In this document: in pieces, positions 52,801-64,000 of the stretch | Numbering within the stretch: the first letter of the stretch is position 1 | Layout: each line of letters opens with the position of its first letter | NCBI RefSeq assembly: GCF_035594765.1 | Contig: NC_085844.1 | Location: 184,714,107 to 184,778,106 of the forward strand | Direction: 5' to 3' | DNA: 64,000 nt | Origin: Anolis carolinensis | Taxonomy: Eukaryota | Made by a program: the position numbers and the translations under genes | The notes under the pieces: model-generated | Database searches by the model: none | What the model saw: only the letters and a program-made list of their open reading frames with translations | Told to the model about the DNA's origin: nothing

Positions 52801-53065
52801 GCTGCTCATTAGCCATCATGAATGGATATGTATGTACATCATTATGAGTATGTGTGCATCATAGGAATGACCTGTAAGAGTGTCCTGGTGTGTACAAAAT
52901 GTAGTGTGGGAAGCAGCCATTAGTCTAAACTACAGGTTGGAGGACATGATTGCTACTGAAGATTAACAATTTTTTGTTCTTAAGCACCAAAAAGTGATAA
53001 CAACCGGACTGGGTAATTTTCCGTCTACAGCCCATCTCAGCAATACTCCACATTGGCCCTCTTAC

Positions 53066-53198
53066 CTCTGAAACCTCCTTCTAAGAGGGTAGTAGCACGT
53101 ATCCTCTTCTGTCCACACCATTCATATTCTTCAAAGCGATTACCATTCTCATTTTCAATGTCAACAGAGTCATCTTCCATCATGCATGAACCTTCCCT
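53066..53198 (-). CDS. RNF220: RNF220 coding exon (133 nt): REGSCMMEDDSVDIENENGNRFEEYEWCGQKRIRATTLLEGGFR(G)
   Basis: Diagnostic RNF220 FEEYEWCGQKRIRAT motif; cag acceptor, gtaaga donor; phases 0/1. Confidence 0.97.
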
Positions 53199-60700: not shown

Positions 60701-61639
60701 GCTTAGGCATGATTTCTGGAACGCACAAGCTAGAATATAATAGAAGACCAGAAATCAAAGTACAGGCATCTGTAATATTCTTGATGGGAACACAAAGTTA
60801 TCTATTCTCTTCTAGTCTGCAGCAATGGCAATAATTTGGTACAAGATATTCCTAACATAACTGTCATCTTCATTTTTAATACCAACCTGTGTGTATGTGC
60901 CTTCAAGTTAGGCAATGAATACGATGATTTTGTCCGTTCCTTCTTTTGTAATATAGCCTACAGCACCTGGCATTTATTGGTGGTCTCTAATCCAATTAGT
61001 AATCAGGAATGGCCCTGCGAGGTTCCAAGATCAGATAAGATCTTGGAATTGCCAAGTCTAACCCTACCAATCTTTTCTGCAACTAACCCATTTCCCTTCA
61101 TATATGCTACTACCACAGCAAACAATTTATTTTCATTTTCTTTAGAGTGGCATTCTATGTTGCTAGATACACACTGTCCATTTCACTCTTTCCTGAAGGT
61201 CACTTGTATGTAAAAGTGACCTTGCAGTTCTCCAAGGTTGTATGAAAATCAATGGTTTTGACCAAATTCTTACAAGAAACTATCTAGAAAAAGAAAGTGT
61301 CATGGGTCATGCCGCTGCCGACCCCAACGTTTCTGTGAAAACGGGCAGTACGATGTTTTCCCTCCAGTCATTTAAAAATGGGGTGGGTGGGAATGCACCC
61401 ATCCAGATTTAGTTGAATTGCAGCTCCCACAAGAACTAGCTAGCATAGCCAATGGTGAGATACTGACAGTTGGAGTTCAACAATATCTCAAAGGCTGAAC
61501 ATTTCCCATGCCCGAATTAGAGAATTCTTAAAAACATCCAAAAAGGAATGAAAGTAAAAATATATTCTGCCACTTACAACTGGGTGGTAACCTACAATCA
61601 AAGGAATCTGATCTACTTACATGCTATAACCAAGGGATA

Positions 61640-62780
61640 TGTTATGATTGAGCCTCATGGCTCTGTTACTGGCAGACGTGGGCGTAAGACTCCTCGAGAG
61701 TCAGATACTCTCGAGGAGCGAGAAAGAAAGAGACTGCGAGATATCTTTGCAGCACCATCTGATGAAGAGTCTTTTGAGGGGTTTACGGAGAGAATGGAGG
61801 AGGGGCTGGTTAGCTCGGAGGAGGATGAGATGGATTGGACTCGGGTGAGGGAGGAATTGGGTGCCACTGGCAATGATGGGATGGAAGATGAATGGGGACC
61901 TTCAGGATTAGACCCATGGACAAGCTGGAGGGATGGGACGGGATCCACAGCTGGGGATGCTGTGGGGCGTAGTCAGAGGTGTTCCAGCTCTGATGAGGAA
62001 AGTGATGAGGAAACGCCCGGGTTAAGGAGGGCAGCTGATAGTGATGAGGATTTGTAACTGGCATAAAATGAGGCTTGGGAGCAATTGCAAATTGCGTTGG
62101 GCAAGGTAATCTGGACGAACGCTTGGGATCTGTGTGGGACGCTTTCCTGAAGACTGGTGTGTTTTCGTGTGCTGATACGTAAGTTGTTTTGGAATTTGGG
62201 GTCAGACGGCGGGAGGAATTGTGTGGGCTTTTGTTTGTGCAAACTTGTGCTTAATCTCATTAGCTTTGACCTTCCGTCGTCTTCTTGACGGACGCCATCT
62301 CCTGCTTTGGATTTCGGACTGAACTGACCACGGCTTGACTTCCCCCCTACTCGGACTTGGTGAAACTACAAACGTCTGCTTCTGGCTTGAACTACGGAAA
62401 GGAACTGGGTCTACTCTACTGCTTCAATCCTCGGCTGACCTGTGTGTATTGGAAATCTTGCCTGCTGTGTGGAGGAGTGACTCAAGTTACTCAAAGCACA
62501 GTGCTGGCAGCAGAGAGGAATCTGCTGCCAATTAATTGCATTCTTTTGAACACTTTGTTCCCCGGCTTCTGTTTTGTTTATCCCCAGGCTGAAGCAAGCT
62601 GTTTTGTTTTTACCCGGATTAAACTCCGGTTTAATCCGGTTTATCTTTTGAACGTTTTTCCTTGCCCCTTTTTGCTTTTAAAGGCTAATACTGCCTGGCC
62701 CTTGTATTTTACGGGCATTTTGAGTTCTGTTATCCAATAAACTCTGTTATCTTTGATCTTGTGGCGTTCTGTCTTTGACA
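61640..62780 (+). mobile_element. Solo LTR (1141 bp), probably Gypsy/Metaviridae-type
   Basis: TGTTA...TGACA termini; perfect 5-bp TSD GGATA (61635-61639 and 62781-62785); CATAAAA box 62062-62068; AATAAA 62736-62741; CpG-rich, so young. Confidence 0.9.
61644..62057 (+). CDS. LTR (U3)-encoded acidic ORF, 137 aa, with basic patches and an FxGF LEDGF/TND-interacting-like motif
   Basis: Open from the LTR's first bases to TAA just before the TATA-like box; RRGRK and ERERKRLR, then DIFAAPSDEESFEGF, then several S-D/E tracts. Coding status is inferred. Confidence 0.6.
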   Translation: MIEPHGSVTGRRGRKTPRESDTLEERERKRLRDIFAAPSDEESFEGFTERMEEGLVSSEEDEMDWTRVREELGATGNDGMEDEWGPSGLDPWTSWRDGTGSTAGDAVGRSQRCSSSDEESDEETPGLRRAADSDEDL

Positions 62781-64000
62781 GGATATAACTAATTTAACTG
62801 TTTTCTGAATTAAGGCAAGGATGGTCCTGTTTGACCTGCAGCAGTATATAAGAAACAAACACATGTTCAGTGGAGTTTTTAAAAACTATAAATAAATATA
62901 ATCAAGCATAGGTATTAATAGGAGTAACATAGAGCAACAGCATAGCCTACCAGAATTTTAGACTCAAGTTCACTGTCATCCTAACAGCAAGGCTAGCTAA
63001 TGATTCTAAAATCCTATGATATTTAGCTGCCACAAAATAAAAGGCAAGTTTCACACCTGAAAGTTGGAAGAGATTCACGACAAAGTAAAAAGTACTGAGA
63101 TTATACTAGAATATCATTTAGACACGAAGAGCTGAAACAAAGACAAACAACTGCTTCAGATAACATTAGGCTACAATGTAAAGCTGGAAGTCCAAATTTT
63201 AAATAATTTGAGTCGGTGAACCACCTACTATCCAGGCACAGCCTTGAGGGCATCACTCTAGCTCATCCCTAATGAGCTTCTAAAGGTTAGCTAAGACTGA
63301 GTTATCTTGTATGGTCTTTGGTTGTTAACTGTTTAAAATTGTGTGTTGTTTTATTTCTAGTGTTTTAAACATTATTTATATGTGTTGTACACTGCTTCAG
63401 GAAACATGTAGGCTGAGAAGTAATAAACAAATATTTCAGTAATTAAAAAAGCAACTTCTATAGACTACAGCTCACAGTGTTCTGTGGAGCCAATTAAACA
63501 GGGATTAATTTTAACTACAGTTAGTGGGAAGGTAAACTTGAATGTTTAAAATGTTAGTTTGTTTCAATTCACTATAGTAGTTATGATAATCCACAGAAAG
63601 GGTTCACTTAATATGTTAGATGATAGTTAATTTAAAAAACAAGTGAACACTTCTAATTGACTCCTTGTGGGGATGGTATGGGGAGAGGGAGAATACAAGC
63701 TTAAGGCTTCCTGGGGTTCATTAACATTACACCACTATTTAGTATTATGCCTGATATGCAGTAAGTTTGGCAAAGGCCAGTCTGTTTTCAAAAATCACTA
63801 AGAGCTTTTTAAGCTCTTGGAAAAATATTAGTATTTCTGCAATACGCATTTTCAATAGCAGCGCCTAGTGTCACAAGGGAATATGTGTGAGACGATCAAT
63901 AGATGGAATGCAGCAGAAGGATTCATTAATCATATACCAAAATTATTCAGTAGGCGAAAGACTTTTGTGGTTTGTATATGTGAAAGGCAGATCACATGTA

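What the first reader, a model, noticed from the sequence alone, without database searches (positions are those of the whole stretch)
61734..61784. LTR-encoded mimic of the LEDGF/p75 IBD (TFIIS-N-domain) interacting motif: candidate host-tethering system
Seen: the LTR's open ORF contains LRDIFAAPSDEESFEGF, preceded by basic patches (RRGRK, ERERKRLR) and followed by acidic CK2-type tracts (SSEEDE, SSSDEESDEE, DSDED). Known: cellular partners bind the LEDGF/HRP2 integrase-binding domain and related TFIIS-N domains through a helix-acidic linker-FxGF motif strengthened by CK2. From memory, JPO2/CDCA7L has DIFNAPSDDEEFVGF (11/15 identical to this peptide) and IWS1 has DIFG...EEFTGF. LEDGF steers lentiviral integration into H3K36me gene bodies. 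Inference: this retrotransposon docks on LEDGF/HRP2 or elongation factors by short-motif mimicry, to target integration into transcribed genes or to boost its own transcription. This copy is intronic, which is weakly consistent. I know of no such description for an LTR retrotransposon.
Basis: partly seen in the sequence, partly recalled or inferred. Interest (0 to 1): 0.9.

Follow-up and report, generated by a model that had tools for sequence, protein, structure and literature searches.

The report
Lizard retrotransposon mimics LEDGF docking motif
The short reading frame in this lizard jumping-gene end-repeat is the tail of the element's integrase, kept by selection, and it carries a close copy of the peptide that host proteins use to dock on the chromatin reader LEDGF, which the element likely uses in place of its lost chromodomain to choose where to insert.

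Summary
The peptide is real (61734-61784) and lies in a young solo LTR (61640-62780, 5-bp TSD) of a Tf1/sushi-type chromovirus of Anolis carolinensis. It is not a free-standing LTR ORF: in full-length copies Pol runs through the PPT into the 3' LTR, so these 137 codons are the integrase C-terminal tail, in a lineage with no chromodomain. The JPO2 likeness is verified (11/15; sole PDB hit; profile E 0.022) and fits the published D/E-x-E-x-F-x-G-F consensus. The tail is under purifying selection (dN/dS 0.21), the module occurs in several diverged Anolis LTR types in up to three tandem copies, and it recurs in a separate clade (Podarcis and others, Pol about 43-46% identical) beside chromodomains that have lost cage aromatics. 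Against: binding could not be modelled; a strand-skew proxy shows no gene-body enrichment (14/47 vs 13/44 random); an equally active sister family also lacks the chromodomain but has no FxGF. Best reading: integrase-tail mimicry of the LEDGF/HRP2 docking motif, likely for chromatin tethering. Ten literature searches found no such report.

The parts
61635..61639 (+). Left target-site duplication GGATA
61640..62780 (+). Solo LTR (1141 bp, TG...CA) of a young Tf1/sushi-type Gypsy family (family A1)
61644..62057 (+). U3-coded last 137 codons plus stop of Pol; in full-length copies the C-terminal tail of integrase. Not joined to Pol in this solo copy
   Evidence: dN/dS 0.21
61674..61739 (+). Basic patches (RRGRK ... 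ERERKRLR), possible nuclear localisation signal (inferred) leading into the motif helix
   Evidence: R11, R28, K29 invariant in 6 of 6 types
61734..61784 (+). LEDGF/HRP2 IBD-binding-type motif (helix with I-F, acidic linker with CK2-type site S39, F-x-G-F)
61812..61847 (+). Acidic tract and conserved M-D/E-W block; in older LTR types this block opens a further motif copy, so here it is likely a remnant module
61983..62051 (+). C-terminal acidic, CK2-type tracts
62060..62070 (+). TATA-like box directly after the Pol stop codon (promoter role inferred)
62094..62104 (+). 11-nt stretch complementary to the primer-binding site after the 5' LTR of full-length copies: self-priming 5' end, marks the likely start of R
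62736..62741 (+). AATAAA polyadenylation-type signal
62781..62785 (+). Right target-site duplication GGATA
53061..53186 (-). Host RNF220 exon downstream of the insertion; an earlier exon lies about 60 kb beyond the window end, so the LTR is in an intron, antisense

Best explanation
The frame is the selected, LTR-coded C-terminal tail of the integrase of a chromodomain-less Tf1/sushi retrotransposon, and its JPO2-like motif likely binds the IBD of host LEDGF/p75 or HRP2, which would tether the integration complex to H3K36-methylated chromatin in place of the chromodomain. Shown: Pol (PR-RT-RH-IN-GPY/F) reads through the PPT into the 3' LTR and ends with this tail; no chromodomain; self-priming site places the frame in U3; purifying selection; motif fits the published consensus; tandem duplication of the module; recurrence in a second clade with cage-defective chromodomains; the host has LEDGF and HRP2. 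Inferred: that the tail stays on mature integrase, that CK2 phosphorylates the linker, that it binds LEDGF/HRP2, and that this biases insertion sites.
For: Architecture: (Pol 1214 aa, no PF00385; last 137 aa = window frame); about 119 of 150 listed internal hits have the full 1214-aa frame (counted by eye). Selection between two individual copies of subfamilies A1 and A2: dS 0.59, dN 0.12, 46 of 74 substitutions at third positions, 0 gaps in 418 coding bp against 36 gap openings in the rest of the LTR; other two frames have stops and dN/dS 1.7-1.8; in the 23 motif codons 13 silent and 5 replacement changes, none at the three F or the G. Six diverged Anolis types (37-76% identical) keep D40, S43, F44, G46, F47 (types were found by an FxGF-containing pattern, so partly circular; with the motif masked, 117-119 of 123 spanning hits keep each F/G, mostly near-copies). 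One to three tandem modules. Second clade: P0008, P0009, P0059 (Podarcis muralis), P0190, P0191 carry one or two such motifs after a chromodomain lacking cage aromatics; Pol 43-46% identical to A1; trees need at least 2 changes. FxGF in the tail in 5 of 68 homologues and acidic xGF in 4 of 115 scorable hits, one of them a host fusion. PDB hit 6EMO; consensus from PMC8022399. Host LEDGF, HRP2, CDCA7L with same-type motifs present. Neighbourhoods differ: A-type tails in 7/47 A flanks, 3/43 chromodomain-family flanks, 1/61 control stretches; chromodomain-family LTRs in 3/47, 11/43, 6/61 (interaction p 0.035); repeat content 0.26 vs 0.42, p 0.0095.
Against: No gene-body signal by the strand-skew proxy: |skew|>0.06 in 14/47 A flanks, 16/41 chromodomain-family flanks, 13/44 random, no orientation bias 23/47, although 7 of 8 slices of the window's own gene pass. 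A vs random repeat content not different (p 0.17). The neighbour tests are post hoc, small and uncorrected; the B-vs-control contrast fell to p 0.057 with 16 more controls. Sister family C (integrase region about 68-80% identical) also lacks the chromodomain, keeps basic patch, helix and acidic tract but has no FxGF, and has at least 130 identical tail copies, so FxGF is not needed for success and chromodomain loss did not require it. Other tail residues (W65, W84, D90, W92, W95, R96) are as conserved as the motif. In older types the helix F is often L/M. Single-sequence PDB E-value is only 1.5.
Confidence: 0.55

Rival explanations
1. The motif binds LEDGF/HRP2 (or another TFIIS-N-domain protein) but not to pick gene bodies: it would stabilise integrase, hold the integration complex on chromatin through division, or act as a decoy; site choice is set otherwise.
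For: Motif quality and selection as above; no gene-body signal; family C thrives with a helix-plus-acid tail, which the TND review says can be a complete motif for other TNDs.
Against: Position at the integrase C-terminus where chromodomains and CR motifs sit; repeated coupling with chromodomain loss or decay; weakly different neighbourhoods.
Confidence: 0.25
2. The tail is a selected acidic, disordered region with a nuclear localisation signal, and the F-x-G-F block serves another partner or an internal contact; the JPO2 likeness is convergence of composition.
For: Whole tail, not only the motif, is under selection (dN/dS 0.20-0.32 outside the motif); tryptophan blocks equally conserved; chromodomain family B also has an acidic LTR-coded tail with an L-G-F remnant.
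Against: 37 of 200,000 shuffles give the consensus and 1 the fuller pattern; top PDB hit is the IBD-bound JPO2 peptide twice; same spacing in a separate clade with unalignable flanks; module duplicated as a unit.
Confidence: 0.14
3. The LTR frame is expressed on its own (ATG at LTR position 5) and acts in trans, for example to recruit elongation factors to the LTR, or the conservation reflects U3 promoter DNA rather than protein.
For: An in-frame ATG or similar lies at the LTR start; solo LTRs keep the open frame.
Against: The frame ends just before the TATA-like box and lies upstream of the self-priming 5' end, so the LTR's own transcript omits it; silent changes are abundant inside the motif (13 in 23 codons), which argues against DNA-level constraint; other types start the LTR with V, not M.
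Confidence: 0.06

Closest known systems
Tf1/sushi (V-clade) chromoviruses of vertebrates (Sushi-ichi, Amn-ichi/ni/san; PMC6317226 passages)
   Same: gag with CCHC, overlapping pol with a GGGAAAA slippery-type site, PR-RT-RH-IN-GPY/F order, self-priming site, 5-bp TSD, nearest relatives carry PF00385.
   Different: No chromodomain; instead a 137-aa LTR-coded tail with a host-type docking motif.
Plant CRM group A centromeric retrotransposons with the CR motif (PMC3059260 passages)
   Same: Chromovirus whose chromodomain is replaced by an unrelated putative targeting domain coded in the 3' LTR; sister groups with a cage-defective chromodomain or no targeting domain.
   Different: The CR motif has no known host look-alike or partner and goes with centromeres; this motif matches a characterised host motif whose receptor reads active-gene chromatin; different clade and kingdom.
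Lentiviral integrase-LEDGF/p75 tethering (PMC9987994, PMC8149907 passages)
   Same: Predicted to use the same host domain (IBD) for the same purpose.
   Different: HIV integrase binds through its folded core (recalled); here a linear motif like the cellular partners'. HIV's gene-body bias (86% in genes per PMC8149907) is not matched by the proxy used here.
MLV integrase tail-BET ET motif; Ty1 integrase-AC40 targeting domain (PMC8149907 passages; PMC7459421 listing only); Ty5-Sir4 (recalled)
   Same: Short motif in a flexible integrase C-terminal tail that binds a host chromatin protein and is dispensable for catalysis.
   Different: Different host receptor; those are shown by experiment, this is predicted.
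Cellular IBD-binding motifs: JPO2/CDCA7L, MLL1, IWS1, DPF3a, ASK, and POGZ, a domesticated pogo transposase (PMC8022399, PMC7337902, PMC9987994)
   Same: Helix, acidic CK2-type linker, F-x-G-F; often in tandem; 11/15 to human JPO2 M1, 10/15 to the Anolis CDCA7L motif.
   Different: Here on an active mobile element's integrase. No DNA-level sign of recent capture from CDCA7L or CDCA7 (28/45 nt to each, best blastn E 0.15); old capture cannot be told from convergence.

Membership tests
Tf1/sushi-group Ty3/Gypsy (chromovirus lineage) | PR-RT-RH-IN order with GPY/F (SH3_Tf2-1) module, LTRs TG...CA, 5-bp TSD | tested here: met
Tf1/sushi-group Ty3/Gypsy (chromovirus lineage) | Self-priming: sequence after the 5' LTR complementary to the 5' end of R | tested here: met
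   11-nt complement at window 62094; feature per PMC6317226
Tf1/sushi-group Ty3/Gypsy (chromovirus lineage) | RT-RH-IN groups with chromodomain-bearing elements | tested here: met
   nested among squamate chromodomain elements, sister to P0005 (SH-aLRT 96, quick tree); no named reference elements were in the tree
Chromodomain-bearing chromovirus (strict sense) | Chromodomain at the integrase C-terminus | tested here: not met
   no PF00385 in A1 or A2 Pol at E<=0.1
LEDGF/HRP2 IBD-binding motif (FxGF-type TIM) | D/E-x-E-x-F-x-G-F consensus | tested here: met
   A1 D-E-E-S-F-E-G-F fits; A2 has D or G at the E position in most copies
LEDGF/HRP2 IBD-binding motif (FxGF-type TIM) | Upstream helix with hydrophobic anchors and an acidic linker of 8-16 residues with CK2-type sites | tested here: inconclusive
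   I-F anchor, 8-residue acidic linker and S-D-E-E site present by sequence; helix not modelled (fold machine busy)
LEDGF/HRP2 IBD-binding motif (FxGF-type TIM) | Lies in a disordered region | not tested
   no Pfam family on the tail and low-complexity acidic make-up suggest it; no prediction run
LEDGF/HRP2 IBD-binding motif (FxGF-type TIM) | F-dependent, phosphorylation-enhanced binding to the IBD | not testable with these tools
Integrase targeting domain (Ty1/Ty5/MLV/CR type) | Located at the integrase C-terminus and under selection | tested here: met
Integrase targeting domain (Ty1/Ty5/MLV/CR type) | Insertion sites biased towards the partner's chromatin | tested here: inconclusive
   skew proxy negative, repeat content and like-with-like neighbours weakly positive; no annotation or chromatin map available

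The most novel reading that the evidence does not exclude
Squamate chromoviruses have at least twice given up heterochromatin reading by their chromodomain and evolved, in the LTR-coded integrase tail, one to three copies of the host's LEDGF/HRP2 docking motif, switching integration to H3K36-methylated active chromatin: a vertebrate retrotransposon that converged on HIV's host cofactor by linear-motif mimicry, with living sister families (chromodomain, FxGF, FxGF-less) as a natural experiment in one genome.
Probability: 0.4. Interest if true: 0.88.

Novelty: new variant of a known kind. Interest (0 to 1): 0.72.

Why it matters
Host tethers are known for few retroelements, and none was found in the searched literature for a vertebrate LTR retrotransposon. 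This names a candidate receptor (LEDGF/HRP2), a 15-residue testable motif, and three very active sister families in one genome that differ in just this region, so the question of how vertebrate chromoviruses choose insertion sites becomes directly testable with peptides and with natural insertion maps. If true it would be an independent origin of LEDGF use outside lentiviruses, by a different binding mode, and would give a host partner for the kind of LTR-coded replacement domain that in plant CRM elements still has none.

Tried and rejected
Complex prediction of Anolis LEDGF IBD with the tail: tool not available, nothing folded. Fold of the integrase end alone and the protein atlas: machines busy, no answer. 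Free-standing LTR gene: rejected. Recent capture from CDCA7L/CDCA7: no DNA-level support in the five host loci examined. Position test along C1 (KS p 0.004-0.02): rejected as an artefact, since the 150-hit list for family A is cut at about 321 Mb. Skew proxy, GC and CpG: 12 pairwise tests, only A-vs-B repeat content (p 0.0095) and B-vs-random GC (p 0.002) under 0.05; L140 dropped for overlapping L101, and 2 B and 1 random flank dropped from skew for under 1500 unmasked bases. Exon detection in flanks by Pfam was judged too weak and not run. Trees are quick searches (careful search unfinished; 3 rows dropped); no one-clade test was run. L292 of family C has an internal deletion and was replaced by two other copies for the tail. 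Passer/pogo as a published LEDGF user: the paper shows a genic, 5'-biased preference but never mentions LEDGF. Earlier scan findings: none by sequence or words, four unrelated by place. A search for the tail in longer proteins returned 7 hits, all Anolis carolinensis.

Full report
Observation. Window 61734-61784 encodes the peptide as reported. It lies in a 1141-bp solo LTR, 61640-62780, bounded TG...CA with a 5-bp duplication GGATA. RNF220 exons on the minus strand lie on both sides, so the copy is intronic and antisense. The family is young and abundant: 2130 first-look candidates, the 40 scored about 100% identical; LTR pairs of three full-length copies are 99.5-99.9% identical. UniRef labels of the nearest proteins name Anolis carolinensis.

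What the frame is. Full-length copies are about 6.3 kb: a 279-aa gag frame with a CCHC knuckle, then an overlapping 1214-aa Pol frame (protease, RT, RNase H, H2C2, integrase core, SH3_Tf2-1) that runs through the polypurine tract into the 3' LTR and ends with exactly the window's 137 residues. About 119 of 150 listed internal hits keep the whole 1214-aa frame (counted by eye). The bases after the 5' LTR are complementary over 11 nt to window 62094-62104, the self-priming arrangement of the Tf1/sushi group (PMC6317226 passages), and a TATA-like box follows the stop codon at 62060-62070. The frame therefore lies in U3, upstream of the inferred start, and would be translated only as the Pol end from genomic RNA; this solo copy is a by-product. 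A1 and A2 Pol have no chromodomain, whereas most of the 68 nearest homologues do.

The motif. The tail's only PDB hit at E<=10 among 177,635 sequences is 6EMO, the LEDGF IBD-JPO2 M1 construct, 11 of 15 identical (E 1.5); a profile of six diverged tails ranks it first of 12 (E 0.022). The peptide fits D/E-x-E-x-F-x-G-F (PMC8022399 passages) and the helix, acidic linker, FxGF layout, whose FxGF part is described as specific to LEDGF and HRP2 (PMC9987994, parts 1-2 of 6 and passages). Shuffles give the consensus in 37 and the fuller pattern in 1 of 200,000 (post hoc patterns). The host has LEDGF and HRP2 IBD exons and CDCA7L/CDCA7 motifs of the same type; DNA identity of 28/45 to either gives no sign of recent capture.

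Selection and spread. Two individual copies of subfamilies A1 and A2 give dN/dS 0.21 over the tail (dS 0.59), no gaps in 418 coding bases against 36 gap openings in the rest of the LTR, and 13 silent against 5 replacement changes in the 23 motif codons, none at the F or G positions. Older LTR types in the genome carry the same module once to three times in tandem; six types 37-76% identical share D40, S43, F44, G46, F47 among 15 invariant columns (partly circular as they were found by pattern). A second clade, Podarcis muralis P0008, P0009, P0059 and unnamed P0190, P0191, has one or two such motifs right after a chromodomain that, read by eye, has lost one or two cage aromatics; Podarcis P0195/P0339 have a weaker FxGF and no Pfam chromodomain in P0195. 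Their Pol is 43-46% identical to A1, less than the chromodomain-bearing P0005 (54%), and quick trees put the two groups apart with at least two forced changes (no one-clade test). Elsewhere the motif is rare: 5 of 68 and 4 of 115 scorable hits, one a host fusion, 35 of 150 not scorable.

Results against. A sister family C also lacks the chromodomain and keeps basic patch, helix and acidic tract but has no FxGF; at least 130 of 150 listed hits are identical, so it is as active. A chromodomain family B is also active and also has an acidic LTR-coded tail. Tryptophan blocks of unknown role are as conserved as the motif. For targeting I compared 9-kb flanks on contig C1 of 48 of 110 listed A elements, all 43 listed B elements and 45 random places. 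Strand skew, a proxy for germline transcription that 7 of 8 slices of the window's own gene pass, was no higher for A (14/47) than for B (16/41) or random (13/44). The proxy is indirect and full-length intronic copies are probably purged, so this is weak but real counter-evidence to HIV-like gene-body targeting. Repeat content was lower near A than near B (0.26 vs 0.42, p 0.0095) but not different from random (p 0.17). Like neighboured like: A-type tails in 7/47, 3/43, 1/61 and B-type LTRs in 3/47, 11/43, 6/61 of A, B and control stretches (interaction p 0.035), post hoc and uncorrected.

Mechanism. Shown: a selected integrase tail in place of a chromodomain, bearing a faithful IBD-binding-type motif, duplicated and recurrent. 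Inferred: retention on mature integrase, CK2 phosphorylation, binding to LEDGF/HRP2, tethering to H3K36-methylated chromatin. I put real IBD binding at about 0.7-0.75 and its use for site choice at about 0.55.

Comparison and novelty. It works like known integrase-tail targeting devices: MLV-BET and HIV-LEDGF (PMC8149907 passages), Ty1-AC40 (listing only), and it copies the architecture of plant CRM group A, whose replacement domain is coded in the 3' LTR (PMC3059260 passages). POGZ is a transposase-derived IBD partner (PMC7337902 and PMC8022399 passages). Ten searches found no report of an IBD-binding or TND-interacting motif in a retrotransposon integrase; the library omits most subscription papers and Repbase reports, and no supplements were read, so an earlier remark on these Anolis elements could be missed. 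Verdict: a new variant of a known kind, interest 0.72.

Noticed in passing
L119, L294, L295 (family C): Very active sister family without chromodomain and without FxGF; its tail may be an FxGF-less motif for another TFIIS-N-domain protein; a natural control.
   Followed up: partly
window 61830-61847 and about 61890-61935; same blocks in L111, L115, L236: Tryptophan-rich blocks (M-D/E-W; W-G; D-x-W-x-x-W-R) are strongly conserved across tail types, including family C; role unexplained.
   Followed up: no
L040-L069, L284 (family B): Young chromodomain family whose Pol also runs into the LTR, with an acidic E-E-N-L-G-F stretch that may be a vestige or precursor of the motif.
   Followed up: partly
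L036 (G000:C2:143.718 Mb): Intronless LEDGF/PSIP1 retrocopy with a stop inside the IBD.
   Followed up: no
L035 (G000:C1:100.25-100.26 Mb); C1:259.76 Mb; C3:74.36 Mb: Head-to-tail tandem copies of family A elements sharing LTRs.
   Followed up: no
G000:C1:184.83-184.93 Mb: Four family A insertions within about 100 kb, a possible hotspot.
   Followed up: no
P0014, P0343, P0344: Anolis database gene models that include pieces of this element (dystrobrevin-like, glucosidase II alpha); possibly annotation artefacts or exonisation.
   Followed up: no
window 4000-58000: Marked strand skew along the RNF220 introns (7 of 8 slices over 0.06), consistent with germline transcription on the minus strand.
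   Followed up: partly
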